This document shows, piece by piece, positions 1 to 13,673 of a DNA stretch of 64,000 nt. Where the stretch lies: the IMG/VR virus record IMGVR_UViG_3300027804_003127; one strand, given 5' to 3'. The notes under the pieces are model-generated. The model was not told the DNA's origin, did no database searches, and saw only the letters and a program-made list of their open reading frames with translations. The translations under genes were made by a program, and so were the position numbers. Positions within the stretch are counted from its first letter, which is position 1. Every line of letters begins with the position of its first letter. Source of the stretch: a virus.

Positions 1-2
1 AC

Positions 3-476: not shown

Positions 477-555
477 TAGGACGATGGGGGGGGAGGGGCG
501 CAAGCCTCTCCCCCTTCCCATTCCCGAATCCCGAAAACGGGAAAGGAGTTAGAGC

Positions 556-1203
556 ATGAGCAACGAATGGAACTACGAAGCGTGGTTCGCCTCGCCTGAA
601 GGCATGAAGGCTATCAAGTCGATTGGGGAGCGTCACGGTCTTGACTTGAGTGAGATCAATGATCCGCGACTGATTGCCTGCATTATCGTGAACGCTGTTC
701 CGCAGTCATCGGCTTGGTTGCCAAAGTCTCTTGTCAACAAGGATGACGAAAGGGACGCCAAGCAACTGCTTGGACAGTTGGCTGGCGACTATCCCGATGA
801 GAATGAGATGTGTGGATGGCTTGCCCTACTGAAGCATGGTGTGTCCGATGTGTCTGTTCCATACTACGGTGGCACAGATCAGATTGATCTTGGAGATGAC
901 TTCGCCTTCTCTACGATTCACGGTAATACTGTGGACTCCAACGCTATTCTTGATGACTTCAAGAATGCGTCTGGGTCAAGTCTAGAGGACTACTTTTGGA
1001 ACGCCATTGACGACTCTGGAGCGGGAGATGGCACAACTTACTCATCGACTTGGATTACTTGCTTGATTCCCGAGTTCTCGCAGCACACTACTGATCCCGT
1101 TTGGGACGAGAACGAGCCTGATGAGTACGATGACTTTGAGATGGACTCGCCTACTGAAACTCCGCTTGGGGAACAGTTAGACGAGAACAATCCAACTGAA
1201 TAA
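556..1203 (+). CDS. hypothetical protein with acidic C-terminus
   Basis: 215-aa ORF directly after repeat copy 1, with an AAGGAG SD. Confidence 0.8.
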   Translation: MSNEWNYEAWFASPEGMKAIKSIGERHGLDLSEINDPRLIACIIVNAVPQSSAWLPKSLVNKDDERDAKQLLGQLAGDYPDENEMCGWLALLKHGVSDVSVPYYGGTDQIDLGDDFAFSTIHGNTVDSNAILDDFKNASGSSLEDYFWNAIDDSGAGDGTTYSSTWITCLIPEFSQHTTDPVWDENEPDEYDDFEMDSPTETPLGEQLDENNPTE

Positions 1204-1278
1204 GACTTATCGGGGGCGGTGGTTTCGGATAGCCGAGCCACCGCTCCCGAATCCCGAAAACTGTAGGGAGGTTAGGGC

Positions 1279-1479
1279 ATGGCTGCGAACTGTCAAAGAT
1301 GTTGGAAAGAAGCCAACTGCACTCAAATGAGTTTCTTCAACACGCAAATGTGTTGCATGAAGTGCATTGAGGAAGAGCGGAAGCATCCGAAGTACGCAGA
1401 AGCCAAAGCCGCTGAAGAGGCTGCTTTGAAGGCTGGCAACTTCAACTTTCAAGGGATTGGATACCCAAGCAACCGATAG
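1279..1479 (+). CDS. small Cys-rich (CxxC...CxxC) phage protein
   Basis: CQRC...CCMKC, GGAGG SD, follows repeat copy 2. Confidence 0.75.
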   Translation: MAANCQRCWKEANCTQMSFFNTQMCCMKCIEEERKHPKYAEAKAAEEAALKAGNFNFQGIGYPSNR

Positions 1480-1487
1480 GAGCCGAT

Positions 1488-2012
1488 ATGCCTAACTGGT
1501 GTGAGAACAAACTGACGATCTACGGAACGAAGGAAGAGCGCGCAGCGATCCGCGAGGCGGTCAAGGGATGCGTGGTTTCTGAAACCGCAAATGGGCATTT
1601 CAATATTTTGCCGCAAGATTTTGCGCTAGATGCGATTGTTCCAATGCCTGACCATATGCGATCAAAAGAAGATCCGCGCTGGAAGCCCGCGCCTCCGATG
1701 ACTTCAGATGAACTTCTTGATTCTATCGCGCAGGATGGAAAAGAGGTCTTTCCTGACTGGTATATGTGGAGGACGAACAACTGGGGAACCAAGTGGGAGG
1801 TCACTAATCCCATCGTCGTAGAGGAAAAGTCGAGATTGGTCATTGACTTTGAGACTGCGTGGTGTTATCCTCTACCGTGCATCACAGCACTGTCGCGCAG
1901 GTTTCCGACAGTCAAAATGAAGATTGCCTTCTACGAACCTGGATGTATCGGTCGCGGGAGTGCAACTCTGTTGAACGGATTTGTTATCCGTGAAACAGGT
2001 GTTGGCGTCTAA
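1488..2012 (+). CDS. DUF1281/YubB-like ferredoxin-fold protein
   Basis: MPNWCEN start, WYxWRxNNWGTKW, FETAWxxP and FYEPG motifs. Confidence 0.8.
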   Translation: MPNWCENKLTIYGTKEERAAIREAVKGCVVSETANGHFNILPQDFALDAIVPMPDHMRSKEDPRWKPAPPMTSDELLDSIAQDGKEVFPDWYMWRTNNWGTKWEVTNPIVVEEKSRLVIDFETAWCYPLPCITALSRRFPTVKMKIAFYEPGCIGRGSATLLNGFVIRETGVGV

Positions 2013-2157
2013 TACAAGATCTTTTCCCCCATGCGCTCCCCCGCTTCGCAAGAGGTGGGGTGAGCGTTTTTTCATTGAGTCGCTCCCCGCTCCCGAATCC
2101 CGAAAACTGGAGCGGGGTTAGGTCATCAGCGGCACAGCCGCAGAAAGGCAGACGAAC

Positions 2158-2574
2158 ATGGCTTTGCATTTTGATCTGACGGGAATCAGCGATCACGAGA
2201 ACATCTGCTACTACAAGAATGATGGCAACTACCTGATGGAGCCGACCACCAAGACCATCATCTTCTACATGATGGCTATTGAGGTGAGCAAGATCACGGC
2301 AGACAACATTCCCGAGGTGTTTGCTCGCATCTCTACTCTTGAGAAGTTGCTTGGCACATCTCTCTCAAAGGGCTTTGACGAGAATGGAGTCAGGATTCCC
2401 GTCTACATCACGCTTGATGATGTCTGCAAGCATGAGGGACTGATTACGAACGCATCCAACAGTTCTCGCACCGAGTTCTTGAAGAAGTGCAAGGACTGGA
2501 TCAAGAGAGACATCGACGACATCTTCAGTCAGACCAAGAAGAAGTTGGTTGAAAAGACTGCTATCTCTGCATAA
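2158..2574 (+). CDS. hypothetical phage protein
   Basis: 138-aa ORF after the conserved leader. Confidence 0.8.
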   Translation: MALHFDLTGISDHENICYYKNDGNYLMEPTTKTIIFYMMAIEVSKITADNIPEVFARISTLEKLLGTSLSKGFDENGVRIPVYITLDDVCKHEGLITNASNSSRTEFLKKCKDWIKRDIDDIFSQTKKKLVEKTAISA

Positions 2575-2584
2575 AGGAAGCAAA

Positions 2585-2953
2585 ATGCGCCCAAATGGAT
2601 ACCTGCCTTTCGACAGCGTTGACGGCTTGAACTGGGGTCAAGGTCTGTTCAATGCGGACTTTTGGAACAAGATCCTGTCCACATTGGACGGAGACAATAC
2701 GAGCGAAGTCCGCGCAGCCGCGCGAATCGTAGCCGCCATTGGAGGGCAAGAGCCAAGTCTGCTGCCATTCAATATGCTTCTTGTTGCGTCGAACAAGTTG
2801 AGGACGATGGTTGCTGATGAAGATTACATCAAGTCTTTTGACGATCCGATTGCTGCTCGCTATTCGATCCAAATGGACATTGATTGGCTTTCTACGATCA
2901 ACGACTACGCGAGGATGAAGCGCAATGATTGCGTGGTGACGCCGCAATCTTGA
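2585..2953 (+). CDS. hypothetical protein
   Basis: ATG at 2585 with an AAGGA SD. Confidence 0.7.
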   Translation: MRPNGYLPFDSVDGLNWGQGLFNADFWNKILSTLDGDNTSEVRAAARIVAAIGGQEPSLLPFNMLLVASNKLRTMVADEDYIKSFDDPIAARYSIQMDIDWLSTINDYARMKRNDCVVTPQS

Positions 2954-3000
2954 TGATCGCCACGCCCCCGAAACCCGAAAACTGGAACGGGGTTAGGGCG

Positions 3001-3070
3001 TGGGCTGAACGAACCTTTCTGCGGCGGGGCGGGGCGACTCAATCGGCGGGTTGCCCCGCCCCTCCCTTTT
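3001..3070 (+). ncRNA. candidate small RNA antisense to the cassette leader/SD
   Basis: Follows repeat copy 4. AACCTTTCTGCGGC (3012-3025) is the reverse complement of the leader GCCGCAGAAAGGTT. It is followed by a 13-bp hairpin (3026-3062) and TCCCTTTT. Confidence 0.6.
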
Positions 3071-3080
3071 GGAGCAGCAA

Positions 3081-3290
3081 ATGAACGAAAAGAGCAAGGA
3101 ACTGCTAGATGCGCTTTCAATGGCGAACATCCATCGTCGTTGGGCTAACTTGTACGAGAGGGTGATAGAGAGTCATCCCGACAGCACGATCACCTGCTGC
3201 GAGTGCGGATACACGATCTTGGGAGATGATCCCGCGATCACCGTTGTCTGCCTTCCATGCTTTGAAAAGAAAAACGGAGAAGATCAATGA
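3081..3290 (+). CDS. small Zn-finger-like protein
   Basis: CCECG...CLPC, GGAG SD. Confidence 0.65.
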   Translation: MNEKSKELLDALSMANIHRRWANLYERVIESHPDSTITCCECGYTILGDDPAITVVCLPCFEKKNGEDQ

Positions 3291-3529
3291 AGGACTACAC
3301 GGACATCTACCTCATCGGAAAGAGCCTCACATCTATGGTTCACGAGATTGAGGCTCTTCGTTCTGAAGTGCAAGCACTAACTGCGGAGCGCAACAAGTAC
3401 GAGCGTCTTTACAACGCTGCTGCTCGCGACTGTGATCGCCTTCATCAGACTTGGTGCGCTCACATTATGAACGGCGAAGTCAAGTTCGCTGAACCTGTGA
3501 ATCCATCAAAGGTCAACGATCAGTTCTAG
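3287..3529 (+). CDS. hypothetical coiled-coil protein
   Basis: ATGA overlap with the upstream gene. Confidence 0.7.
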   Translation: MKDYTDIYLIGKSLTSMVHEIEALRSEVQALTAERNKYERLYNAAARDCDRLHQTWCAHIMNGEVKFAEPVNPSKVNDQF

Positions 3530-3599
3530 CACCGCTCCCGAAACCCGAAAACTGGAGCGTGGTTAGGGCATGAGCGGCACAGCCGCAGAAGGGAATGTC

Positions 3600-3743
3600 A
3601 TGGAAGTCACCTTGACCTACTGTTTGATAGGTTCCAACATGGCGGTACTGCTTGCCTTCCTTTACGAGAAGCGCAACTTCCGTCTTACAAAGCGCGCCTC
3701 AAGTCGAAAGCGCGCGCCAAAGCGCAAGGAGGACGGCAAGTGA
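3600..3743 (+). CDS. 47-aa membrane peptide with basic tail (not in ORF track)
   Basis: MEVTLTYCLIGSNMAVLLAFLYEKRNFRLTKR..., directly after the conserved leader. Confidence 0.65.
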   Translation: MEVTLTYCLIGSNMAVLLAFLYEKRNFRLTKRASSRKRAPKRKEDGK

Positions 3744-3898
3744 GCAACGCATTTGACTGGTTGGCAGAGCAGGCAGACAGACTCATGGAGATGTTCGTGA
3801 TGCTGTACCTGTTGGCAGTATGCGCATTTGCATTCCTGTCCATCCCGTTCTCGCTGGCATTGATCGCCTTCGCATTGATGAATGGAGGTACATCGTGA
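3740..3898 (+). CDS. 52-aa hydrophobic peptide (not in ORF track)
   Basis: GTGA coupling, AAGGAGG SD, long hydrophobic stretch. Confidence 0.6.
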   Translation: MSNAFDWLAEQADRLMEMFVMLYLLAVCAFAFLSIPFSLALIAFALMNGGTS

Positions 3899-4131
3899 AA
3901 GACACAGACATCATTGCGGCGATTGCGCCCGATGCAGTATCGCTGATGGACAAGGCAATCGCGGAGATCAAGCGACTGCGGCAGGAGAACGCAACCCTCA
4001 CCGCCGAGCGCGATGAGGCGAGGCGGGAACTTTGCCGCATCGAAAGTAGTGCATCAGGAGATCCAAACATGACGAGCCGTGCCGTTGCAGCGGATTGTGG
4101 TTGGGACTGCTTCAAGGAGGACGGCAAGTGA
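3895..4131 (+). CDS. hypothetical coiled-coil protein
   Basis: GTGA coupling, GGAGG SD. Confidence 0.65.
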   Translation: MKDTDIIAAIAPDAVSLMDKAIAEIKRLRQENATLTAERDEARRELCRIESSASGDPNMTSRAVAADCGWDCFKEDGK

Positions 4132-4499
4132 GCGACAAGCAGGCGGCGTGGATCGACCGCCTTGTGGATGAGGCGAAGAATCCCGTCGAGATTCCCGACC
4201 TGACTCCGATCATTGAGGCTTTCAAGACTACCTCTGTGAAGTTCCCCAAGATCAAGGGAGTCATTGACGGTACTGAAGTCGTGATCTCGTGGACTGCGCC
4301 TGATTCGGCGCATCCGAAGGTCAAGGACGAGAACCGTGGCACTTGCGCGATCAATACGGGCAAGTACGGCGACCCGAACGCGAAGTTCTACGGTCGCATC
4401 AAGACAGACGGATCGCTTGCCGCAGGTCGTGACCTGAACGCAGCGGTTGTGTCTTGGCTGAAGGAAGTTGCGGAGAATCCGCAGCCGCAGGGCAAGTGA
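4128..4499 (+). CDS. hypothetical protein, N-terminally shorter paralog of 11036..11509
   Basis: Shares WIDRL.DEA.NP, FPKI.G..DG.E, GRI..DGS...GRDL and VAENPQP.GK with that ORF. Confidence 0.8.
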   Translation: MSDKQAAWIDRLVDEAKNPVEIPDLTPIIEAFKTTSVKFPKIKGVIDGTEVVISWTAPDSAHPKVKDENRGTCAINTGKYGDPNAKFYGRIKTDGSLAAGRDLNAAVVSWLKEVAENPQPQGK

Positions 4500-4574
4500 C
4501 CGAACAAGGGTAGGGAGGGGAGCGATCCTCTCCCTACCCGCATTGTTTCCGAATCACGAAAACGGGGGACAAAA

Positions 4575-4889
4575 ATGACTCTTGAATGCAATCAGTTCTT
4601 CATTGACATCATTGAGAAGGAGCATCATCCCGTGTGCTGCTATGTCATCACGGCATACGATGTCATGGTTGAGTTGAATGTGACGGAGGAAGTTGCTTCC
4701 GTCATTGTCGAGAGGATGCGGGAGTCAAATGACGCCGTGTGGCAGTCCATTTGGCGTGATGCACACTTTGAGTACGATCAAATCAAGGCTCAAGACCCGC
4801 TTCTTGAGTTGATTGACACGGTAAGGGACTCCCCGCCCCCGAATCCCGAAAACGGGGAAGCGGTTAGCGAGTCGGGGAAGATCAAGTAG
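4575..4889 (+). CDS. hypothetical protein (C-terminus reads through a repeat copy)
   Basis: ORF track; its PPNPENG segment is the translated repeat. Confidence 0.6.
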   Translation: MTLECNQFFIDIIEKEHHPVCCYVITAYDVMVELNVTEEVASVIVERMRESNDAVWQSIWRDAHFEYDQIKAQDPLLELIDTVRDSPPPNPENGEAVSESGKIK

Positions 4890-5045
4890 CGTATTCGCGG
4901 CGGCGAATACACCCTCCCAAGTTGCGTGGTGGCTTGGGGTCTGGAGGGCTAAACACCTGTGCAATCCCGTAATGAGCCGCAGCGGGATAAGATAAAGGCT
5001 CCCATGCCTGTTGGCGGTATCCCGTCATCAGGCATTTCCATTGAC
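4870..5045 (+). ncRNA. candidate structured RNA cassette (four hairpins)
   Basis: No SD-led ORF between repeat copies 7 and 8. Stems at 4891-4910, 4912-4948, 4964-4988 and 5004-5035. Confidence 0.55.
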
Positions 5046-5124
5046 AAGGCTCCCCGCTCCCGAATCCCGAAAACTGGATCGGGGTTATGTCATCAGCGGC
5101 AAAGCCGCAGAAAGGCAGATAGAC

Positions 5125-5496
5125 ATGGCTGACAAGAAGATGCTGAAGATCGGCGCGAACGGCAAGATCGAGGTGGTCGCCTACACGGGATACGAGTCTC
5201 TGCGCGATGGCGTTGGCGGCTACATCGAGTGCATCAGTCTCTCTGATACTGTTTCTCTGTGGTGTAACGAGAACGGCAAGTTGGACGGACTGCCACCGAA
5301 TATGTTTGCCACCATGCTGTTCGCAGAGGTCTTTGGCAATGCAGACATCATCGTTGGCGATTGCTGCGTTCTAGGTGGAGTCGATGAGGAAGGCGAGAGC
5401 CTGGAATGTCCGCAGGATGTCATCGACAAGGTGAAGCGTTGGGCTGATAAGTTGCAGCCCATGTGGGTGGTGAGCGGAGCGGGCGGACGCGAGTGA
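5125..5496 (+). CDS. DUF3846-family protein
   Basis: LRDGVGGYIE, LWCNENGKLDGLPPN and IIVGDC motifs. Confidence 0.8.
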   Translation: MADKKMLKIGANGKIEVVAYTGYESLRDGVGGYIECISLSDTVSLWCNENGKLDGLPPNMFATMLFAEVFGNADIIVGDCCVLGGVDEEGESLECPQDVIDKVKRWADKLQPMWVVSGAGGRE

Positions 5497-5565
5497 GGCG
5501 CGCCCCCGAATCCCGAAAACTGGAATGAAGTTAGGGTGTAGCGAGAACACTCGCAGAAAGGACAG

Positions 5566-5973
5566 ATGATGCAGACGACGAATATCGCGCTAGATGTCAA
5601 GTCGAGTGCAGCCGCCGCAATCGTGAAGGAGATCGTTGAGCCTACCGAGGGCTTTACGAGCGGCAAGATCACGGTGGAGTTTGACTTCACCTGCGACAAG
5701 GGTGCAGACGAGACTTACACGGCTGTGCAGGAACTTTGCCCGTGGACTCTCGTGGCAGTCCTCATGTCGAAGATCAATGGAGTCACGCAGGATGTCGTTC
5801 TCGACATGATCCCCGAGATCATGGCTATGTCCGACAAGCAGCGCAAGGTGCTGCGCGAGACTCTCAAGGACACCACCACGCAGCGTCTTGAGGAGATGGG
5901 TGCGATGGTGCAGAAGGTGCGCGCTGGCAAGTGCCGTATCGAAGTGATCGGCTCTGCTACCGTGCAGAAGTAG
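5566..5973 (+). CDS. hypothetical protein
   Basis: 135-aa ORF after the conserved leader. Confidence 0.8.
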   Translation: MMQTTNIALDVKSSAAAAIVKEIVEPTEGFTSGKITVEFDFTCDKGADETYTAVQELCPWTLVAVLMSKINGVTQDVVLDMIPEIMAMSDKQRKVLRETLKDTTTQRLEEMGAMVQKVRAGKCRIEVIGSATVQK

Positions 5974-6063
5974 GACGAAAGATGGGGGAGGGGAGAAATC
6001 CTCTCCCCCGTCTTATTCCCGAAACCCGAAAACTGGAACGAAGTTAGGTCACAGGAGGCAACC

Positions 6064-6240
6064 ATGCGAATCCGAGAGTGTACCTGCGATAGTGGGGAAT
6101 GGGGTACTGAACAGTACGATGCAAGGGGTATCTACCTCTGCATTACCTGTCCCGAGTGTCACGATAAGAAGATGTCCGCTTATCGTCCTGAAGTCCTCAC
6201 AGACTCTAACTACGAGTGTTGTGAGGACATTGAACCGTAA
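6064..6240 (+). CDS. 58-aa Cys-rich protein (not in ORF track)
   Basis: MRIRECTCDSGE...YDARGIYLCITCPECH..., AGGAGG SD. Confidence 0.75.
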   Translation: MRIRECTCDSGEWGTEQYDARGIYLCITCPECHDKKMSAYRPEVLTDSNYECCEDIEP

Positions 6241-6318
6241 GGCTCCCCGTCCCCGAAACCCGAAAACGGGGAAGCAGTTAGGTCATCAGCGGGGCAATCC
6301 CGCAGAAAGGACAGACGC

Positions 6319-6600
6319 ATGAGTTTCTACGCAAGCGACACGGGATGGGCAATCTCGTACAAGAACGGATGGTCGGTGTCCGTCAAGTTCAGCGAATCCC
6401 ACTATTCGGCGCAAGCCGCAGGAAAGTGGGTCAGCGCAGAAGTCGCGGTCTTTAGACCGAACGGCGACTTCTATCCCTTGACGGAGGATGACGATGTCAA
6501 GGGATGGCAGACTCCCGAAGAGGTCACGCAGATCATGCTGTGGGCTGAAAGTCAGCCCAATAGCAGCGGTGACTACAAGGTGGAATCTGTGTCCTACTGA
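6319..6600 (+). CDS. hypothetical phage protein
   Basis: NGWSVSV...AEVAV...DDVKGWQTPEEV pattern; follows the leader. Confidence 0.75.
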   Translation: MSFYASDTGWAISYKNGWSVSVKFSESHYSAQAAGKWVSAEVAVFRPNGDFYPLTEDDDVKGWQTPEEVTQIMLWAESQPNSSGDYKVESVSY

Positions 6601-6716
6601 ATACTGAAGGGGGGAAGGCGAAGCCTTCCCCCCTTCACCCCCCCGCCGCCCCCGAATCCCGAAAACTGGAGCGGGGTTAGGGTGTGGCGAGAACACTCGC
6701 AGAAAGGTTGGCGCAG

Positions 6717-6908
6717 ATGCACATTCAGTTGTTTGCCAAGAAGGACTGCAAGTTGTGCAAGGGCAAGGGCGAAGTTCAGGAACCGCACGGTGAGGTTCTT
6801 GACTGCGACTGCATCTACGATCAGTCTGCTTACACGGATGAGCAGATTGACGAGGCAATCGCGAAGGGTACGATTGAGATTGTTTCAGCCTACTGGGAGG
6901 GCAAATGA
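6717..6908 (+). CDS. small Zn-ribbon-like protein
   Basis: CKLCKGKG...CDC; ATG after the AGAAAGG leader. Confidence 0.7.
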   Translation: MHIQLFAKKDCKLCKGKGEVQEPHGEVLDCDCIYDQSAYTDEQIDEAIAKGTIEIVSAYWEGK

Positions 6909-7216
6909 GCGAATACAACGGATGGAGTAGCCGCGCCACATGGAACATCGTCCTGTGGCTGACCAACGACGAGCGCGCTTACAACGCCGCTCGCGCTCGC
7001 ATCGGTGCTTTCGAGCAGCCGTTGAGCAAGGGTGACGCGCGACACATCGTGCAGTTCGCTCTTGGTCACATGACGCCCGATGGCGTCAAGACAAGCGATC
7101 CGACGATCTCTTGGGAAGAGATCCTTGAGACTTTGATCGAACTCTCCCCGAATCCCGAAAACGGGAGCGGGGTTGTGTCATCAGCGGCACAGCCGCAGAA
7201 GGGCAGCAACACATGA
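6905..7216 (+). CDS. conserved phage hypothetical protein (YNGW..TW..LW..NDE type); reads through a repeat
   Basis: N-terminal motif and ATGA coupling. Confidence 0.75.
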   Translation: MSEYNGWSSRATWNIVLWLTNDERAYNAARARIGAFEQPLSKGDARHIVQFALGHMTPDGVKTSDPTISWEEILETLIELSPNPENGSGVVSSAAQPQKGSNT

Positions 7217-7437
7217 GCGGAACTAGGACGATCACGAAGCGGTGCGTTCAGACGGGGAAGAACTACAGCGTCACCGTTGACGATGACGCATTCTTCAGGT
7301 GGGTCAACGGGGAACTCGCGCAGCGAGCGTTCCCGAACATGAATCCAGCCGATAGGGAGTTTCTCATCAGCGGAATCTCTCCCGAAGGTTGGCAGCAAAT
7401 CTTTGGAGACAAGGAAGAGGCAGATACGGGGGCGTAA
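7213..7437 (+). CDS. conserved phage hypothetical protein
   Basis: Q.AFP.M...DREFLISGI.PE.W motif; follows the leader. Confidence 0.75.
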   Translation: MSGTRTITKRCVQTGKNYSVTVDDDAFFRWVNGELAQRAFPNMNPADREFLISGISPEGWQQIFGDKEEADTGA

Positions 7438-7500
7438 GCCCCCGTTGTCTGCCTCCCGAATCCCGAAAACTGTAACGAAGTTAGGTCACAGGAGGCAACC

Positions 7501-7731
7501 ATGCGTAATCCCAAGAACGGACTGTGGGTAGTGACCTTTCATCAGGAGCATTGCTACGAGAGCGATGCCGCTACTGAATGGGGCGATGATGTCCCGTACA
7601 TCGAGAGCATTGTTGTGGACGCGAATAGCGATCACGATGCTCGCAAGAAGGCGAAGAACGCAATCGTTGCATACGGGAAGATCACGATTGTGAGCGCGTT
7701 CCCGATGACCTCAATCTTCCATCGCGCATAA
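7501..7731 (+). CDS. hypothetical protein
   Basis: AGGAGG SD; leader identical to that of 6064. Confidence 0.7.
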   Translation: MRNPKNGLWVVTFHQEHCYESDAATEWGDDVPYIESIVVDANSDHDARKKAKNAIVAYGKITIVSAFPMTSIFHRA

Positions 7732-7828
7732 AAAACGCGGGAATCAATAGAGCACCGCCCCCGAATCCAGAAAACTGGAGCGGGGTTAGGGTGTAAGCGG
7801 GGCAATCCCGCAGAAAGGCAGACTGAAC

Positions 7829-8239
7829 ATGAGTTATGGAGAAGATCGTCCTCTTGTTGGTATCAAGGGCATCGTGATCGCAGCATCCATCATCATTTCG
7901 TGCATCGGTGGGTGTACGATTGGCTATCCTCACTACAAGGTGTGGAGCGCCACGATGGATGGCGAAGCAGAGTACGCTCAAGCCGAGCAGAACCGCAGAA
8001 TCGCGGTTCTTGAAGCCGAAGCGGAACTACAGTCGGCAAAGGCACTTGCCGCTGCGGAAGTCGAGCGAGCGAAGGGTGTTGCTGAAGCCAACGCCATCAT
8101 TGGACAGAGCCTCAAGGACAACGAAGCGTACCTGCGCTGGCAGTGGATCAAGAACCTCGAAAGCGGTTCTAATAGCGTGATCTATGTTCCTACAGAAGCG
8201 GGGCTTCCCATCCTTGAAGCGGGGAAGCGAGACAAGTAA
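7829..8239 (+). CDS. membrane-anchored coiled-coil protein (SPFH/band-7 C-terminal-like)
   Basis: N-terminal TM segment, EVERAKGVAEANAII...YLRW and VIYVPTEAGLPILEA. Confidence 0.7.
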   Translation: MSYGEDRPLVGIKGIVIAASIIISCIGGCTIGYPHYKVWSATMDGEAEYAQAEQNRRIAVLEAEAELQSAKALAAAEVERAKGVAEANAIIGQSLKDNEAYLRWQWIKNLESGSNSVIYVPTEAGLPILEAGKRDK

Positions 8240-8364
8240 CCTTTCCGAAGAGGGCGCGCTCCACAGGGGGTGCGCCCTCTTTGTTTCGACGCCAGCCCCC
8301 GAATCCCGAAAACGGGAGCGGGGTTAGGGTGTAAGCGGGGCAATCCCGCAGAAAGGACAGACGC

Positions 8365-8673
8365 ATGAAGGAAGTCAGTCTTTCAGAGCGTCCCGCTGAT
8401 TACAGCGCGGACAACGGCAAGGGTGCGCCAACCCATGTCCAACTCAAGTCCACGAAGCGGTGGGTCAAGACTCCCGAGGGCTACCATCGTCGCCCAGAGG
8501 GATGGATGAGTCACATCTACTACAGGTGTGAGGATGGATACGAATGGATCGAGACTCCAAGCATCGACTTGCTTGAGGAATGGCAGTCGGATTGCGTGTG
8601 TGAGACTCCAACGGGTGAGATGGTCGAGCCTGACCATCCCCGTTCATGGTTGTTCATCCTGGGACTCATCTAA
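8365..8673 (+). CDS. hypothetical phage protein
   Basis: C-terminal VEPD...SWL..LGLI motif; follows the leader. Confidence 0.75.
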   Translation: MKEVSLSERPADYSADNGKGAPTHVQLKSTKRWVKTPEGYHRRPEGWMSHIYYRCEDGYEWIETPSIDLLEEWQSDCVCETPTGEMVEPDHPRSWLFILGLI

Positions 8674-8719
8674 ACGAGCAATGTGCGGGGGGAGGGAGCG
8701 CTACCTCTCCCCGCACGAG

Positions 8720-8777
8720 ACTGAAGCGCACCGCACCGTGCCGCACCGCGCTACTGAAGCGCACCGCACCGTGCCGC
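8720..8777 (+). repeat. 25-bp direct repeat x2 (ACTGAAGCGCACCGCACCGTGCCGC)
   Basis: Copies at 8720-8744 and 8753-8777. Confidence 0.9.
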
Positions 8778-8867
8778 GCAAATGAAACGCCCCTCGCTCC
8801 CGAAACCAGAAAACGGGAGCGAGGGGCATACTCTTTAGCAACATAGTTGCTGGAAAGGTGGAGAGTA

Positions 8868-9095
8868 ATGGACGAATACGATGACTTCATCATCGGACCT
8901 CAATGCGAAGAGTTGTCCATCTATGTTGGCTACAACATCATGGACGAGGACGCTTGTGAGATTGATTGGTGCGTCGATTGTTGCGACGACGACGACGACG
9001 ACGACCATGACGACGACCATGATGGCGACCATGACGCGCCAAACCCACAATCCCCGCCCCCGAATCCCGAAAACGGGAGCGGGGTTAGGGTGTAA
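8868..9095 (+). CDS. very acidic Asp/His/Cys-rich small protein
   Basis: A GAC-repeat tract encodes DDDDDDDHDDDHDGDHD. Confidence 0.6.
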   Translation: MDEYDDFIIGPQCEELSIYVGYNIMDEDACEIDWCVDCCDDDDDDDHDDDHDGDHDAPNPQSPPPNPENGSGVRV

Positions 9096-9125
9096 GCGGG
9101 ACAATCCCGCAGAAAGGTTGGTGCG

Positions 9126-9449
9126 ATGACTCAAGCAGAACTCATCGCGAAGGTAGGGTTCGGATGTGGTGGTGATCGTGAAGAAATCCTGTTCCGTGCA
9201 GGGTATCGTCCGATCAGGTGGTCGCCGTTCAACCGCGACACGAAGGAGTTTGTGTCGTGGACGCGACTCGACCGCTCCGCAGAGGAAGAGGGAATCGCCT
9301 TCTGGCGTTCGCGCGAACTGCGGTCAGGATCGCGCCACTACCTTTCCACCTCCGATGCCACCATGCGTGGCGAGGACGGAAGTGGATGGACGCGCACCCG
9401 CGCTCTGCGGAACGCAGATGCGCTCCGATGGGAACGCGCAAGTCGGTGA
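9126..9449 (+). CDS. hypothetical protein, paralog of 12188..12469
   Basis: Shares GFGC.GD..E...RAG.R.IR.SPF and FVSWTRLD. Confidence 0.8.
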   Translation: MTQAELIAKVGFGCGGDREEILFRAGYRPIRWSPFNRDTKEFVSWTRLDRSAEEEGIAFWRSRELRSGSRHYLSTSDATMRGEDGSGWTRTRALRNADALRWERASR

Positions 9450-9537
9450 ACAGCAATAGGGGGGAAGGGAGAGGCGAAGCCTCTCCCTTCCCCCCTCTCT
9501 TCCGAAACCCGAAAACGGGGAAAGAAAAGGAAAAACC

Positions 9538-9702
9538 ATGAAAACAATCTTCTTGCTTACGATCACCCTGCTCGCCGCATTCGCATTCAACGCTGGCATC
9601 ATGTGGTGCTGCGTTGAACTGTTCGGATGGAATCCCGCGATCATCGCTGGCGTGGTGGGAATGGGTCATGCTGCGAATGCTCTTGTGAAGAAACCAAAGT
9701 AG
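9538..9702 (+). CDS. 54-aa membrane peptide (not in ORF track)
   Basis: MKTIFLLTITLLAAFAFNAGIMWCC..., AAGGA SD. Confidence 0.65.
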   Translation: MKTIFLLTITLLAAFAFNAGIMWCCVELFGWNPAIIAGVVGMGHAANALVKKPK

Positions 9703-9794
9703 CACCGCACACCGCACACCGCACACCGCCCCCGAAACCCGAAAACTGGGACGCGGTTAGAGCGTAAGCGGCACAGCCGCAGAAAGGTGGTTCG

Positions 9795-9959
9795 ATGAAC
9801 AAGGGAATCCAAGACCAAGCGCGTCGAGCCAAAACGCTGGCTTGGCAGCGTGCGCGCGACATTCGCGCTGCGGGACGCATTGCGCGACCCGCTACTTGGG
9901 GCGGCAAGCCAACCGCCAAAGAGTCTCGCCGCGCATGGAATCAGCGCGGAGAGCATTGA
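9795..9959 (+). CDS. 54-aa Arg/Ala-rich basic peptide (not in ORF track)
   Basis: MNKGIQDQARRAKTLAWQRARDIR..., after the leader. Confidence 0.65.
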   Translation: MNKGIQDQARRAKTLAWQRARDIRAAGRIARPATWGGKPTAKESRRAWNQRGEH

Positions 9960-10036
9960 AGCACTCCAGCCCCCGAATCCCGAAAACTGGAACGGGGTTA
10001 GGGCATCAGCGGCACAGCCGCAGAAAGGTTGCGAAC

Positions 10037-10423
10037 ATGAGCATCAGCGCATGTCACATCAGCCGTGACGAGAATGAGGTCGCAGCGGAAATCGCCGCTG
10101 CAACGGCGAACATCCTCGCGGATTCGTCCGCTTGGATCGTCCTGACCCAAGTGATGGAGAACTACGGCGCCCATGCTTGGGATGGCAAGGGTGAGTGTCC
10201 GCAGTATTGGAAGGCGAAGGGCGGCAACGAGTATATCGTTCGCGGTTGCCGCACACACATCGAGGCTATGAGTCTCGTCGCCTCGCGCATGAGCAACAAC
10301 CATGCGTGGAGGGAGTTCCCCGTTGGCTCGCTCGAGCCTGCGGAGTGGATCAAGGACATCGAGGACTACGATGCGTCCTACAAGGCGCATCTCTTGAAGG
10401 GGATTCAAGAGATCAAGCGATAA
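10037..10423 (+). CDS. conserved phage hypothetical protein
   Basis: ENYGAHAWDGKGECPQYWKAKGG motif. Confidence 0.8.
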   Translation: MSISACHISRDENEVAAEIAAATANILADSSAWIVLTQVMENYGAHAWDGKGECPQYWKAKGGNEYIVRGCRTHIEAMSLVASRMSNNHAWREFPVGSLEPAEWIKDIEDYDASYKAHLLKGIQEIKR

Positions 10424-10553
10424 CCTTTCCGAAGAGGGCGCGCTCCGCAAGGGGTGCGCCCTCTTTGTTTCGTTGCTCTTCCCGCTCCCGAAACCCGAAA
10501 ACTGGAGCGGGGTTAGGGCGTAAGCGGCACAGCCGCTAGAAAGGTTGACGAAC

Positions 10554-10676
10554 ATGGAAACTGTGCTCCAAGTCTGTTCGTGGATCGTCCTCACGGGCGT
10601 TGCCATGATTTGGCCAGGGTTTGCCCTAGTTTGTCTCGACTACATCGTTCAAGGGTTGAGGCGGCACAGCCGCTAG
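10554..10676 (+). CDS. 40-aa membrane peptide (not in ORF track)
   Basis: METVLQVCSWIVLTGVAMIWPGFALVCLDY..., after the leader. Confidence 0.6.
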   Translation: METVLQVCSWIVLTGVAMIWPGFALVCLDYIVQGLRRHSR

Positions 10677-10690
10677 AAAGGTTGACGAAC

Positions 10691-10876
10691 ATGGATGAGA
10701 AGATTCGTGAACTGACGGATCAAGTGCAAAAACTCCTGAAGGAGAATGAAGATCTCCGAGGGGGAGTCGATGAGAGAGTCTGTGACCTTGTTGATGAGAA
10801 CAAGGATCTCAAGAGACAACTTGAGAAGGCGCGTATTGAGCGCGACCTACTCATGCGGATCGTGAAAGGCGCGTAG
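10691..10876 (+). CDS. small coiled-coil protein
   Basis: Heptad pattern; preceded by a duplicated leader. Confidence 0.7.
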   Translation: MDEKIRELTDQVQKLLKENEDLRGGVDERVCDLVDENKDLKRQLEKARIERDLLMRIVKGA

Positions 10877-11035
10877 TACGCGCGCATACTACACGCTCCC
10901 GAATCCCGAAAACTTTGCGGCTCGACTTGCATCGGTCGCGCCGTGCATTGCACGAAACACTCCAACCCCCGAATCCAGAAAACTGGAGCGGGGTTAGAGC
11001 ACAAGCGGGACAATCCCGCAGAAAGGCAGATCAAC

Positions 11036-11509
11036 ATGGACAAGAACAAGCAGATTCAGGGACTCGCATCCGTCATCGCAACGAACCCCGCTCGCGCGGA
11101 GTTCGCGTCGTCGCTGCTCGCCGCGCTCGTCAAGGGCAGCGCGTCGGAGAAGCAGGTCGAGTGGATCGACCGCCTCATTGACGAGGCGCAGAACCCTGCG
11201 CCCGTGGTTGGCGATCTCGCCGCTCTCATCGAGGCGTTCCGCGCCTCGAAGGATCGGTTCCCCAAGATTCGGGGAACGGTTGACGGGATCGAGTGGACGA
11301 TCTCGTACACGCCCCGCGACAGCGCGAAGGCGAAGCCCGAGAATTGCGACACTTGCAACATCGCATCGGGCAAGTTCGGGCAACCAGACAATCGGTTCGC
11401 GGGGCGCATCCTCGCGGACGGGAGTTTCAAGGGGGGACGCGACCTGACCCCCGCAGTCGCGGAGTGGATCAAGTCGGTTGCGGAGAACCCGCAGCCGAAG
11501 GGCAAGTAA
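11036..11509 (+). CDS. hypothetical protein, paralog of 4128..4499
   Basis: Direct sequence similarity; follows the leader. Confidence 0.8.
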   Translation: MDKNKQIQGLASVIATNPARAEFASSLLAALVKGSASEKQVEWIDRLIDEAQNPAPVVGDLAALIEAFRASKDRFPKIRGTVDGIEWTISYTPRDSAKAKPENCDTCNIASGKFGQPDNRFAGRILADGSFKGGRDLTPAVAEWIKSVAENPQPKGK

Positions 11510-11631
11510 ATCGCAGGGGGCGCGCTCCACAAGGGCGCGCCCCTATCTGCGTTTCAATCCCCGCTCCCGAATCCCGAAAACTGGAGCGGAGTTAGAGCGT
11601 AAGCGGCACAGCCGCAGAAAGGTTGGCGCAG

Positions 11632-11865
11632 ATGAAGGGACAGAACATGACGCTCGCCCAGCGCATCGCTTGGGCGAAGCAACTCAAGGCGCGCGAGGCG
11701 AACGCTCGCGCCGAGGCGGAGGCGCGCGCAGCGCGCATCGCACAGCAGCGCGAGGTCGCTGCGTCGGTCGCCGCCCACACCTATCAGGGTGGGTCGGGCG
11801 ACTCGCTGGGGTTCCTCATGCACCTCGCAGGGGTGCAGGGGGCGTCCTCGAACGCCCATCGCTAA
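11632..11865 (+). CDS. Ala/Arg-rich helical protein
   Basis: ORF after the leader. Confidence 0.65.
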   Translation: MKGQNMTLAQRIAWAKQLKAREANARAEAEARAARIAQQREVAASVAAHTYQGGSGDSLGFLMHLAGVQGASSNAHR

Positions 11866-11954
11866 CCGCAGGGGGGCGCGCTCCACAAGGGCGCGCCCCT
11901 ATCTGCGTTTCTCTCCCCGCTCCCGAATCCCGAAAACGGTAGCGGGGTTAGAGC

Positions 11955-12062
11955 AGTAGCGGCAAGTGTCGTTCGCAGGTAGAAGCGCGCCCCTAGACGC
12001 GCAGCACGCTACAGCGAACGGCAGGGTTCAGCGTGAACCTTGTGCCGTCAAACATAAACGCC
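11955..12062 (+). ncRNA. candidate three-way-junction RNA cassette
   Basis: No SD-led ORF between repeat copy 26 and the next hairpin. Stems 11959-64/12043-48, 11967-76/12014-23 and 12024-30/12034-40. Confidence 0.55.
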
Positions 12063-12187
12063 GCAAGGGGGCGCGCTCCGCAAGGGGCGCGCCCCTATCT
12101 GCGTTTCTCTCCCCGCTCCCGAATCCCGAAAACGGTAGCGGGGTTAGAGCACAAGCGGGACAATCCCGCAGAAAGGTTGGTGCGCCC

Positions 12188-12469
12188 ATGAAGAGCGCAC
12201 ACGAACTGACCAGCCGAATGGGATTCGGCTGCAACGGCGACCACCGAGAGGTCGCCTATCGCGCGGGCGTCCGCGCGATCCGCCTCTCCCCGTTCGATGA
12301 CGGGGAGGGTACGCCGATCCACGATTTCGTGTCGTGGACGAGGCTCGACTCCCTCGCCGCGAGCGAGGGAGAGGCAGTAGCCTCCGCTTGGCGCATCCGC
12401 GCCGAGCGGGGTGACGGCACGCGCCAAGCCGTGCCAACAATCTTCGGCAAGTTGCCGAAGGGCAAGTAA
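12188..12469 (+). CDS. hypothetical protein, paralog of 9126..9449
   Basis: Direct sequence similarity and the same leader subtype. Confidence 0.8.
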   Translation: MKSAHELTSRMGFGCNGDHREVAYRAGVRAIRLSPFDDGEGTPIHDFVSWTRLDSLAASEGEAVASAWRIRAERGDGTRQAVPTIFGKLPKGK

Positions 12470-12592
12470 ATCGCAGGGGGCGCGCTCCACAGGGGGCGCG
12501 CCCCTATTCTGCGTTTCTACTCCCGCTCCCGAATCACGAAAACTGGAGCGCGGTTAGAGCGCAAGCGGCACAGCCGCTAGAAAGGACAGAAC

Positions 12593-12835
12593 ATGACTGA
12601 AAAGGTTGAATGGACGCGCGAACGCGCGATCGCGCTGCTCTCGATGATCGAGAGCAACCACCCCGACCTGTCTGAAAAGACGGGTTGGGAAGATGAGAAC
12701 TGTCAGGTCGCCTATGTGGGCGGCCTGTTGTGGGCAGCCGCCCACGATGAGGCTGACCTCGACGGCCTCAAGTCGCGCCTCGCGCGCGCGCAGGCCGCAC
12801 GCGCCGCAAGGCGAGCGCGGTACGCAAACTGCTAA
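12593..12835 (+). CDS. hypothetical protein
   Basis: ORF after the leader. Confidence 0.7.
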   Translation: MTEKVEWTRERAIALLSMIESNHPDLSEKTGWEDENCQVAYVGGLLWAAAHDEADLDGLKSRLARAQAARAARRARYANC

Positions 12836-12957
12836 CAGCAAAGGGACGCATCCCACAAGGGTGCGTCCCTTTGCTGCGTTTCAACCCCCGCTCCCGAATC
12901 CAGAAAACTGGAGCGCGGTTAGAGCACAAGCGGCACAGCCGCTAGAAAGGTGGTTCG

Positions 12958-13326
12958 ATGGAAGTTGTGATTGTCACGCGCCACGCGGCGCTGGTGCAGG
13001 TCCTCGCAGAGGACCATGGAATCACGGGTCGCGTCGTGGAGCACGCGCTCCCGACCGACGTGATCGGAAACATCGTCATCGGCGTGCTGCCGATGCACTT
13101 GGCTGCGAAGGCAGCCAAGGTCGGGACGCTCGTCCTCGACCTCCCCGCAGATTTGCGGGGAAAGGAGTTGACTGCCGCCGAAGTGCGGCAGTATACCACG
13201 AACCTTGAGTGGTTCGTGGTGAGGACGGAGGTCCAGCAGCAGTGGCTGCTGGACGACAGCAATCAGGCTGGCCTGCAGGGTTCGCTAGGTCGACTGGCGC
13301 AGGACATGGCTCCTGCGTCGGTGTGA
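12958..13326 (+). CDS. csx16: Csx16-like (Cas_VVA1548 family) protein, putative ring nuclease
   Basis: VTRH, VVEH, VIGVLPMHLAA and LDLPADLRGKELTAAE match the Csx16 pattern SRH...VIGTLPVHLAA...L.LP...RG.EL. Confidence 0.7.
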   Translation: MEVVIVTRHAALVQVLAEDHGITGRVVEHALPTDVIGNIVIGVLPMHLAAKAAKVGTLVLDLPADLRGKELTAAEVRQYTTNLEWFVVRTEVQQQWLLDDSNQAGLQGSLGRLAQDMAPASV

Positions 13327-13375
13327 GAATAGGGGCGCGCTCCACAGGGGGCGCGCCCCTATTCTGCGTTTGTTT
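13327..13375 (+). terminator. GC-rich hairpin family closing cassettes (last copy)
   Basis: GAATAGGGGCGCGCTCC-ACAG-GGGGCGCGCCCCTATTC followed by TGCGTTTGTTT. Related copies at about 8247, 10431, 11513, 11868, 12063, 12473 and 12837. Confidence 0.75.
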
Positions 13376-13673
13376 GGATGCGTCCAAACCAGCAGCGTCA
13401 ACTTGACCCAAGCGAGAGAAACGTTTAAACGCATACCCCCCACCTGGGGGTCTTTTTATAGGTAAAAACTGGCTGCTGGGGGATACCTTACGGGCTTCTG
13501 CGTTTGTTGTAATTTATGATGGATAAAAAAAAGGGGGGGTGTGAAAATTGAAATTTTTAATTATGAAGAAAAGGGATACCTTGGTGAATTGGGGTATTAA
13601 TGACATTATGAATTGATAGAAGGCGTTTAGCAGGTAATGCAATGATATGTAAATAACAAGGAGTAATGAGCTC

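What the first reader, a model, noticed from the sequence alone, without database searches (positions are those of the whole stretch)
12958..13326. Stand-alone Csx16-like gene as the last cassette: candidate phage anti-type III CRISPR ring nuclease
Seen: TRH, VIGVLPMHLAA and LDLP..LRGKEL motifs, with no cas operon or CRISPR array in the window. Known: Csx16 is a type III CRISPR-associated protein reported to degrade cyclic oligoadenylate, and viruses use an unrelated ring nuclease (AcrIII-1) to neutralise type III immunity. Inference: a host ring nuclease captured as an anti-CRISPR, which supports the array being an anti-defence library.
Basis: partly seen in the sequence, partly recalled or inferred. 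Interest (0 to 1): 0.75.

Follow-up and report, generated by a model that had tools for sequence, protein, structure and literature searches.

The report
Phage-borne Csx16-type ring nuclease gene
A huge uncultured freshwater phage carries a small intact gene of the Csx16 family, enzymes shown to destroy the cyclic tetra-adenylate alarm signal of type III CRISPR. It most likely disarms that defence, which makes it an untested new member of a known class of viral counter-defence genes.

Summary
ORF 12958-13326 (+, 122 aa) is a real Csx16-family gene: Pfam PF09652 gives 61.9 bits against a cut-off of 25, and three PADLOC Csx16 models match. It is the last unit of a high-GC array of standardised cassettes inside a low-GC huge phage. 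The window has no cas gene and no CRISPR array.

The best reading is a cA4 ring nuclease used against type III CRISPR (confidence 0.6). It is untested. Csx16 was shown to be a cA4 ring nuclease, and was seen in two cultured phages, by Hoikkala et al. 2025. This scan has already reported phage Csx16 genes in at least 19 other genomes. Capture from a host and the "anti-defence library" reading are not shown. Verdict: new member of a known kind.

The parts
12836..12876 (+). GC-rich hairpin that closes the preceding cassette (terminator-like)
   Evidence: 18-bp stem in the RNA fold of 12836-12960, z-score -7.7. Member of repeat families D4 and D9.
12884..12949 (+). Shared cassette unit: hairpin CGCTCC...GGAGCG, then GTTAGAGC, then the short stem-loop GCGGC-ACA-GCCGC
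   Evidence: One of 23-29 co-oriented copies of the array's repeat (families D1-D6).
12944..12950 (+). Shine-Dalgarno-like AGAAAGG, 7 nt before the ATG
   Evidence: Read directly from the sequence. The same leader precedes most cassettes.
12958..13326 (+). Csx16-family gene, 122 aa. Csx16 domain at res 1-89, plus a C-terminal helix and tail at res 90-122.
   Evidence: Pfam, PADLOC and NCBIfam matches. AF2 model with pLDDT 86.9. Conserved R8, H9, H29, G42, L44, P45, R67, G68, L71. dN/dS 0.23-0.39 against relatives.
13326..13375 (+). 18-bp GC-rich hairpin plus GCGTTTGTTT tail: terminator-like end of the cassette and of the array
   Evidence: Terminator scan. RNA fold z-score -6.9. The core 13332-13371 is 100% identical to 12477-12516 (family D9).
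13435..13461 (+). Second terminator-like hairpin (CCCCCCACCTGGGGG) with a T tract, at the switch from high to low GC
   Evidence: Terminator scan. GC profile. The junction is conserved in L001 and L098-L100.

Best explanation
The gene encodes a small homodimeric Csx16-type ring nuclease. It is made by the phage from one of its standardised expression cassettes. Inferred mechanism: when the host's type III CRISPR complex detects phage RNA and its Cas10 subunit makes cyclic tetra-adenylate (cA4), this protein binds cA4 on the conserved face formed by the T7-R8-H9, G42-x-L44-P45 and R67-G68-x-E70-L71 loops. It then cleaves cA4 to linear products, so cA4-activated effectors (Csx1, Can1/2, Card1, Cam1 and the like) are never switched on. 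In other words it acts as an anti-type III CRISPR enzyme, as AcrIII-1 does. Shown here: family membership, conservation of the family motifs, the fold, a predicted dimer, purifying selection, the phage location, and the absence of type III genes. Inferred only: cA4 binding and cleavage (taken from the one Csx16 tested in PMC12409355), the timing of expression, and the effect on immunity.
For: Family membership:
- Pfam PF09652 gives 61.9 bits against a cut-off of 25.
- Three PADLOC Csx16 models match, and so does the Csx16 part (positions 385-476 of 478) of a CARF-HEPN-Csx16 fusion model, at E 2.4e-13.

Conserved residues:
- R8, H9, H29, G42, L44, P45, R67, G68 and L71 are invariant across 43 diverse members, including the two Methanobacterium virus proteins annotated as Csx16. 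T7 and E70 are at 90% or more.
- TRH, G-x-LP-x-HL and LRG-x-EL also align in Csx16 domains fused to Card1 CARF plus Card1 endonuclease. That links the domain physically to cA4-sensing effectors.

Structure:
- The AF2 model has pLDDT 86.9, with five strands flanked by helices.

Homodimer:
- Score 0.68, best of 3 controls 0.00.
- The mark was reached by 20 of 30 proteins solved as pairs of one chain and by 1 of 23 solved as single chains.
- The runs agree in at least 80% of contacts, and the partner's pLDDT is at least 84.
- Tandem-duplicated forms of about 200 aa exist in the family.

Selection:
- dN/dS is 0.39 and 0.23 against relatives at 77% and 83% identity.
- The identical protein occurs on six contigs from six samples.

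Context:
- The window has phage genes (RNR, ThyX, dUTPase, sigma factor, LysM lysozyme) and no cas gene or CRISPR array.
- All relatives whose context I checked are on phage-like contigs or an integrase/ParB island.
- 76 IMG/VR contigs encode relatives. None of the 76 has a RAMP gene over cut-off, including 18 records that are at least 90% complete, while the control genomes do ring.

Literature:
- Csx16 degrades cA4 but not cA3 or cA6. It was found in 68 type III loci and 2 cultured phage genomes (PMC12409355).
- AcrIII-1 sets the precedent for a viral ring nuclease acting as an anti-CRISPR (bioRxiv 10.1101/778746).
Against: - No activity has been measured for this protein or for any phage Csx16.
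- It is a divergent subfamily. It scores below NCBIfam's TIGR02620 cut-off (30.4 against 46.35 bits), and about 40-70 bits lower on Pfam than the effector-fused canonical domains.
- His29, invariant in this clade, is E or N in the Card1-fused forms, so the active site may differ.
- The host is unknown, so whether it has a cA4-signalling type III system is unknown.
- Expression timing is unknown. In its native virus, the AcrIII-1 homologue SIRV2 gp37 was reported to be expressed too late to act as an anti-CRISPR, and to have another role (bioRxiv 10.1101/2023.01.10.523387).
- RNA-library contigs that cover the ORF are low-depth and cannot prove transcription.
Confidence: 0.6

Rival explanations
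1. It binds a cyclic nucleotide signal but acts differently. Either it is a sponge that sequesters cOA without cutting it, or it targets another signal (cA3, cA6 or a CBASS-type product), so that it counters a defence other than, or in addition to, cA4-signalling type III CRISPR.
For: The clade has its own invariant His29, which the Card1-fused canonical domains lack, and it scores below the TIGR02620 cut-off. Specificity may therefore have shifted. The related Csx15 showed no clear nuclease activity and a sponge role was discussed; Csx20 also cut cA3 at high enzyme concentration (PMC12409355). Crn4 shows that ring nucleases can be broad (PMC12830947).
Against: The only Csx16 tested was strictly cA4-specific and catalytic (PMC12409355). 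The T-R-H and R-G-x-E motifs shared with canonical Csx16 are intact.
Confidence: 0.15
2. The protein has a role unrelated to blocking type III immunity at the onset of infection. It might bind and inhibit a host protein, or be expressed too late to act as an anti-CRISPR, as was reported for the AcrIII-1 homologue SIRV2 gp37.
For: SIRV2 gp37 cleaves cA4 but gave no anti-CRISPR effect in native infection, and it inhibits a host lysine methyltransferase (bioRxiv 10.1101/2023.01.10.523387). This clade has an extra conserved C-terminal helix and tail (res 90-122) not covered by the Csx16 model. Expression timing of the array is unknown.
Against: The C-terminal helix is predicted to form part of the dimer interface rather than a free binding surface. 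The nucleotide-face residues are the most conserved ones. Stand-alone Csx16 genes recur on many unrelated phages, which fits a portable, host-independent activity.
Confidence: 0.12
3. It is the off-switch of a cOA-dependent system that the phage itself carries. That could be a phage-encoded effector used against rival elements. The phage's own RAMP-like (VIPR-type) locus, noted about 13-17 kb upstream by another reader, is a conceivable partner.
For: In cells, Csx16 works as a regulator of the cell's own effectors, and it occurs fused to Card1-type effectors. Another reader noted a RAMP-like gene with a pentamer-coded RNA array upstream of this window (finding e1-5632244). One IMG/VR contig has a sub-threshold RAMP-like ORF about 3 kb from its Csx16 gene.
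Against: No Cas10, CARF effector or RAMP was detected in the window or in 10 kb upstream. The upstream 196-aa ORF matches nothing in Pfam or PADLOC. As described, VIPR systems have no cyclase or cOA signalling, and their paper names no ring nuclease (bioRxiv 10.64898/2026.04.26.720920). None of the 76 viral contigs has a RAMP gene over cut-off.
Confidence: 0.05
4. It is an inert remnant: a captured gene that is no longer expressed or active.
For: It sits at the very end of the array and has a foreign-looking composition (GC 0.63 against about 0.33 for the backbone).
Against: The frame is intact, with the same leader, SD and terminator as its neighbours. dN/dS is 0.23-0.39. All family-invariant residues are kept. 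The protein is identical in six samples. RNA-library contigs match the ORF exactly in two studies, which is only a weak hint.
Confidence: 0.03

Closest known systems
CRISPR-associated Csx16 (Pfam PF09652 Cas_VVA1548 / NCBIfam TIGR02620), the cA4-specific ring nuclease of type III loci (Hoikkala et al. 2025, PMC12409355)
   Same: Same Pfam and PADLOC family. Same T-R-H, G-x-L-P-x-H-L and L-R-G-x-E-L motifs. Same small five-stranded alpha/beta fold, with the same weak structural likeness to AFV3-109. A dimer is predicted.
   Different: It is not next to any cas gene and is encoded by a phage. It scores below the TIGR02620 cut-off. It has an extra invariant His29, which is E or N in the effector-fused canonical domains. 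It also has a C-terminal helix and tail of about 33 aa that joins the predicted dimer interface. Its activity is untested.
AcrIII-1 / Crn2 (DUF1874; SIRV1 gp29, AFV3-109), the viral ring nuclease anti-CRISPR
Phage-encoded Csx16 of Methanobacterium viruses PhiF3 and Drs3
   Same: They are stand-alone Csx16-family genes near a genome end of tailed viruses, and they keep the same invariant residues. They are probably the kind of hit counted as 'Csx16 in two phage genomes' in PMC12409355. That identification is my inference.
   Different: They are archaeal viruses, only 33-37% identical over two thirds of the protein, and they are not in a repeat-bracketed cassette array.
Crn4b and Csx20 homologues on phages and plasmids (PMC12830947, PMC12409355)
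   Same: They are cellular ring nuclease families with copies on mobile elements, and these copies are proposed, but not shown, to be anti-CRISPRs.
   Different: They are different folds and families. Crn4 has broad specificity.

Membership tests
Csx16 (PF09652 / TIGR02620) | Match to the Pfam family model above its gathering score | tested here: met
   61.9 bits against 25, E 6.6e-17, profile positions 2-89 of 91.
Csx16 (PF09652 / TIGR02620) | Match to NCBIfam TIGR02620 above its curated cut-off | tested here: not met
   30.4 bits against a cut-off of 46.35 (E 3.3e-7). This indicates a divergent subfamily.
Csx16 (PF09652 / TIGR02620) | Match to the independent Csx16 models of the CRISPR annotation sets (PADLOC), including the Csx16 domain of CARF-HEPN-Csx16 fusions | tested here: met
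   PDLC01635 5.3e-16, PDLC01062 1.9e-13, PDLC01356 1.7e-10, PDLC01842 2.4e-13.
Csx16 (PF09652 / TIGR02620) | Conserved polar residues (His, Arg, Asp/Glu) proposed for ring nuclease function | tested here: met
   T7-R8-H9 and R67-G68-x-E70-L71 are conserved in 43 members and in Card1-fused Csx16 domains. The published description of conserved His, Arg and Asp/Glu is in PMC8284326.
Csx16 (PF09652 / TIGR02620) | Derived Rossmann/CARF-like core: a five-stranded sheet flanked by helices | tested here: met
   The AF2 model (pLDDT 86.9) has strands at 3-6, 25-27, 39-42, 54-60 and 80-86 with intervening helices. Its weak best matches are ring nucleases and CARF domains.
Csx16 (PF09652 / TIGR02620) | Homodimer | tested here: met
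   Prediction only. Score 0.68, best of 3 controls 0.00. The mark was reached by 20 of 30 proteins solved as pairs of one chain and by 1 of 23 solved as single chains. Tandem-duplicated family members exist.
Csx16 (PF09652 / TIGR02620) | [quoted passage not shown] | tested here: not met
   There is no cas gene or CRISPR array in the window or in 10 kb upstream. This is the expected result for a viral copy.
Csx16 (PF09652 / TIGR02620) | Cleaves cA4 specifically | not testable with these tools
   This needs a biochemical assay such as the HPLC assay of PMC12409355.
AcrIII-1 / Crn2 (DUF1874) | Sequence match to DUF1874 | tested here: not met
   PF09652 was the only Pfam family at E up to 1.
AcrIII-1 / Crn2 (DUF1874) | Shared fold with solved AcrIII-1/Crn2 structures | tested here: inconclusive
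Anti-CRISPR (functional class) | Encoded by a virus or mobile element that lacks the targeted system | tested here: met
   Phage gene content. No type III genes. None of 76 related viral contigs has a RAMP gene over cut-off.
Anti-CRISPR (functional class) | Expressed early enough in infection to act | tested here: inconclusive
   Low-depth contigs from two metatranscriptome libraries match the ORF, but they cannot show transcription or timing.
Anti-CRISPR (functional class) | Inhibits type III CRISPR immunity | not testable with these tools
   This needs a plasmid- or phage-challenge assay.

The most novel reading that the evidence does not exclude
Csx16 may be chiefly a family of viruses and mobile elements, not of CRISPR loci. 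Under this reading there is a large clade with its own invariant second histidine (His29). It includes stand-alone, tandem-duplicated and even portal-fused forms on phages of many kinds. The roughly 68 known CRISPR-linked copies would then be the minority. As proposed for Crn2/AcrIII-1, the flow may have been from virus to host, and Csx16 and DUF1874 may share an ancestor.
Probability: 0.3. Interest if true: 0.55.

Novelty: new member of a known kind. Interest (0 to 1): 0.38.

Why it matters
Ring nucleases are how viruses can silence every cA4-dependent effector of type III CRISPR with one small enzyme, yet only AcrIII-1 has been tested as an anti-CRISPR. If this protein works as proposed, Csx16 becomes another viral ring nuclease family, after AcrIII-1/Crn2, that acts against type III CRISPR. 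It is also far more common in uncultured phages (76 IMG/VR contigs here) than the two cultured phage genomes reported so far. It would also be the one cassette with an assignable function in this phage's 13-kb array of standardised cassettes, and so a first handle on what that array is for. The gain is incremental: the idea is already in the literature, and this scan has met it repeatedly.

Tried and rejected
- **Foldseek against PDB:** no match at E up to 0.001.
- **Profile search of PDB sequences:** only DARPins and ankyrin repeats, matched through the short stretch G-x-LP-x-HLAA. This is a chance motif match, not homology.
- **No solved Csx16 structure was found.**
- **Search for fused forms with the single protein:** nothing. 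The profile search then found them.
- **Whole-genome look-up:** no genome is held for this window.
- **blastn of the region against cultured phages:** one 69-nt match only.
- **Assembly chimera as the cause of the GC jump after the gene:** rejected. The same junction occurs in contigs from three other samples, and the DNA upstream of the array is 45-50% GC on the same contig.
- **Phage-encoded type III or RAMP partner:** the 196-aa upstream ORF flagged by another reader, and its neighbours, match no Pfam or PADLOC family except faint hits below threshold.
- **Cas9, PtuB and CARF4 rows in the PADLOC scan of the window:** weak (E 1e-5 or worse). I attribute them to a generic domain such as HNH, which Pfam finds in the same protein set. 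The scan does not say which protein gave them, so this is an inference.
- **Looking for CRISPR-linked Csx16 in cell genomes for a tree:** over cut-off, only the seed genomes matched among 401 Chloroflexota-group and 401 Bacteroidota-group genomes. I could not build a labelled phylogeny, so I make no claim about the direction of transfer.
- **RNA-library contigs:** parts of the stretch have no cover. I draw nothing from that.
- **My recollection of a conserved Glu88 in AcrIII-1:** the text I could read does not bear it out, so I dropped it.

Full report
**1. The observation**

Window 12958-13326 (+) is an open frame of 122 aa that starts MEVVIVTRH.

- Pfam PF09652 (Cas_VVA1548, that is Csx16) matches residues 5-87 almost end to end, at E 6.6e-17 and 61.9 bits against a gathering score of 25.
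- Three independent PADLOC Csx16 models match (E 5.3e-16, 1.9e-13, 1.7e-10). So does the C-terminal Csx16 part of a CARF-HEPN-Csx16 fusion model (2.4e-13).
- NCBIfam TIGR02620 also matches (E 3.3e-7), but at 30.4 bits, under its curated cut-off of 46.35.

So this is a real but divergent member of the family.

**2. The setting**

The first 13.4 kb of the window hold 23-29 co-oriented copies of one composite intergenic unit. The unit is a hairpin CGCTCCCGAATCCCGAAAACTGGAGCG, then GTTAGGGC, then the small stem-loop GCGGCACAGCCGC, then AGAAAGG and ATG.

- The copy at 12884-12949 is the last one. Its AGAAAGG lies 7 nt before the ATG of the Csx16 gene.
- The gene is followed by an 18-bp GC hairpin with a T-rich tail (13326-13375) and a second terminator-like hairpin at 13435-13461.
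- GC then falls from 0.64 to 0.36.
- The low-GC remainder encodes ribonucleotide reductase, ThyX, dUTPase, a dCTP-deaminase-like protein, a sigma factor, a LysM lysozyme, G6PD, a PcfJ-like protein and a 1305-aa helicase. This is a large phage.
- The window has no CRISPR array and no Rfam match. A PADLOC scan of 39 larger ORFs found no cas gene.

The GC jump is not a misassembly. Contigs from three other samples carry the same Csx16 gene followed, 348 nt later, by the same low-GC 347-aa gene. On the 97.5-kb source contig, the DNA upstream of the array is 45-50% GC.

**3. Is the gene maintained?**

The identical protein is on six contigs from six samples. Two relatives at 77% and 83% identity sit in similar arrays of small co-oriented genes (L001, L003). 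They give dN/dS of 0.39 and 0.23. The gene is therefore under purifying selection, though not a tight one.

In L001 the 150 nt downstream are almost identical to the window, while the gene itself differs at 72 of 369 nt. That looks like allele replacement within a fixed cassette frame.

Contigs from two freshwater metatranscriptome libraries match the ORF exactly (306 nt and 228 nt). They are low-depth, and DNA carry-over cannot be excluded, so this is only a weak hint of expression.

**4. What the protein looks like**

Conservation:
- An alignment of 30 relatives, and a wider one of 43 that includes the two archaeal-virus proteins annotated as Csx16, leave R8, H9, H29, G42, L44, P45, R67, G68 and L71 invariant.
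- T7 and E70 are at 90% or more.

Fold:
- The AlphaFold2 model is confident (mean pLDDT 86.9).
- It has five strands (3-6, 25-27, 39-42, 54-60, 80-86) flanked by helices, then a helix at 91-107 and a loose tail.
- The conserved residues all lie just after strand ends, as expected for the ligand face of a Rossmann-like or CARF-like domain.

Structural matches:
- Foldseek finds nothing in the PDB.
- The Cad1 CARF domain (3.9) and Crn1 Sso2081 (3.4) come further down.

Dimer:
- A homodimer is predicted: score 0.68, best of 3 controls 0.00.
- The mark was reached by 20 of 30 proteins solved as pairs of one chain and by 1 of 23 solved as single chains.
- The runs agree in at least 80% of contacts, and the partner's pLDDT is at least 84.
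- The interface uses the edge strand 84-92, the extra C-terminal helix and residues 45-50.
- Family members that consist of two Csx16 domains in tandem (about 200 aa) fit a dimeric working unit.

**5. Link to cA4 signalling**

A profile search for longer proteins found Csx16 domains fused to the Card1 CARF domain and the Card1 endonuclease domain (P0213-P0216). One of them is named Csx16 by NCBI. Card1 and Can2 are cA4-activated effectors, so these are self-limiting effectors of the kind that led to the ring nuclease prediction (PMC8284326).

Pairwise alignments of the window protein with two of them keep VTRH, G-x-LP-x-HL and LRG-x-EL. His29 is replaced by E or N. His29 is thus a hallmark of the stand-alone clade, not of the whole family.

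The biochemistry comes from the literature. A representative Csx16 fully degraded cA4, but not cA3 or cA6. Csx16 was found in 68 type III loci of 38,742 genomes and in 2 of 28,114 cultured phage genomes (PMC12409355). AcrIII-1 uses a conserved His47 as general acid and closes a loop bearing Arg85 over cA4 (bioRxiv 10.1101/778746).

By analogy, and only by inference, H9 (or H29) and R67 in the loop 61-72 before helix 73-79 could play these parts.

**6. Where the relatives live**

- All eight contexts I examined for relatives at 38-88% identity are phage-like. They hold many small unannotated genes, lysins, a 4379-aa protein, DUF932, GP88 and the like, and none has cas genes.
- The one long cellular contig (a Planctomycetia MAG) has the domain next to a phage-type integrase and a ParB-like gene beside secA. 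That is an integrated element, while the MAG's RAMP genes are on another contig.
- IMG/VR holds at least 76 contigs with a relative. None has a RAMP gene over the Pfam cut-off, including 18 records estimated at least 90% complete, while the same search rings in five control genomes.
- Over cut-off, only the seed genomes matched among 401 genomes each of two phyla.
- The family as a whole has 2,776 clusters at 50% identity with E up to 0.001.
- Among cultured phages, only Methanobacterium viruses PhiF3 and Drs3 match (33-37% identity), and both are annotated as Csx16 family.

Stand-alone Csx16 is therefore widespread on uncultured phages. Whether phages took it from hosts, or the reverse, cannot be decided from these data.

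**7. Best explanation and rivals**

The most likely reading (0.6) is a dimeric cA4 ring nuclease that the phage makes to stop type III CRISPR signalling.

The rivals are:
- a sponge, or an enzyme for a different nucleotide signal (0.15);
- a role unrelated to early CRISPR inhibition, as reported for SIRV2 gp37 in its native host (bioRxiv 10.1101/2023.01.10.523387) (0.12);
- the off-switch of a phage-borne cOA system (0.05), for which I found no partner gene;
- an inert remnant (0.03).

**8.

The array as an "anti-defence library" gains little from this gene. The other 32 cassette products match only DUF3846, DUF7249, DUF1281_C, DUF932 and unannotated PHROGs, plus one 'protease' PHROG. Upstream cassettes match DUF6915, DUF4241, DUF5983 and DUF6011. 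None of these is an established counter-defence family. The Csx16 gene is the only cassette with an assignable function.

**9. Novelty**

The idea that phage copies of cellular ring nucleases act as anti-CRISPRs is in print for AcrIII-1, Crn4b, Csx20 and Csx16 (PMC12409355, PMC12830947). This scan has already reported phage Csx16 genes in at least 19 other genomes. This gene is a new, well-supported but untested member of a known kind.

What this analysis adds is modest:
- the scale of the viral clade;
- its own invariant histidine and its C-terminal dimerisation helix;
- the cassette setting.

Noticed in passing
window 1-13460; L089 1-20648: GC climbs steadily along the cassette array, from about 0.46 upstream of the window to 0.65 at its end. 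It then drops abruptly to 0.36 at about 13.45 kb, where the phage backbone (0.30-0.40) begins. In many other viral loci the Csx16 gene is also much GC-richer than its surroundings, for example L014 0.59 against 0.42, L016 0.67 against 0.44, L088 0.55 against 0.39, and L006 region 0.60-0.64 against 0.34-0.41. This is unexplained.
   Followed up: partly
window 13327-13479 vs L001 8370-8522: The 150 nt downstream of the gene are almost identical in a related phage, although the Csx16 genes differ at 72 of 369 nt (77% aa identity). This suggests allele replacement inside a fixed cassette frame.
   Followed up: partly
L002 7880-8500: Another huge-phage contig, which encodes a 4379-aa protein, brackets its Csx16 gene (64% identity) with a different repeated intergenic unit (GTGTACCTCACCCT...TCCCTTGACGGGG...GGGGTTTCTTTGT.CGATCGCAACCC.AGCATGGAGACAC). 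This is the same cassette logic with a different repeat.
   Followed up: no
protein P0207 (715 aa, metagenome): A phage portal protein (PF06381 Phage_portal_3) carries a C-terminal Csx16 domain (res 621-704). A ring nuclease built into the virion could be delivered with the DNA.
   Followed up: no
proteins P0015, P0060-P0064 and others: Tandem-duplicated Csx16 proteins of about 200 aa, with two matched stretches each. They amount to covalent pseudo-dimers.
   Followed up: no
proteins P0213-P0216: N-terminal Csx16 fused to the Card1 CARF domain and the Card1-like endonuclease. These are self-limiting cA4 effectors, a different arrangement from the Csx1-Csx16 fusions in PADLOC.
   Followed up: partly
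L089 4244-4834 (about 13-17 kb upstream of the Csx16 gene, outside the window); L096 (IMG/VR G420): Another reader flagged a 196-aa RAMP-like ORF with a pentamer-coded RNA array upstream of this window. That description resembles the VIPR systems (GGY/NN vrRNAs) of 2026 preprints. The ORF matches nothing in Pfam or PADLOC. Separately, one IMG/VR contig has a sub-threshold RAMP-like ORF (E 2e-5) about 3 kb from its Csx16 gene.
   Followed up: partly
window 4095-4499 vs 11036-11509; 9126-9449 vs 12188-12469: There are paralogous cassettes within the array (repeat families D11, D12 and D15; the N-termini MTQAELIAKVGFGCGGD and MKSAHELTSRMGFGCNGD). The array therefore grows partly by duplication.
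   Followed up: no
L009 9539-10282 (Planctomycetia MAG): A Csx16 domain sits at the C-terminus of a 247-aa ORF whose roughly 150-aa N-terminal part is unannotated. It lies in an island with a phage-type integrase and a ParB-like gene next to secA. The MAG's type III RAMP genes are on another contig.
   Followed up: partly
window 12893: Two RNA-library contigs begin or break at 12893, the first base of the repeat core. This is probably an assembly break at a repeat rather than a transcript end.
   Followed up: no
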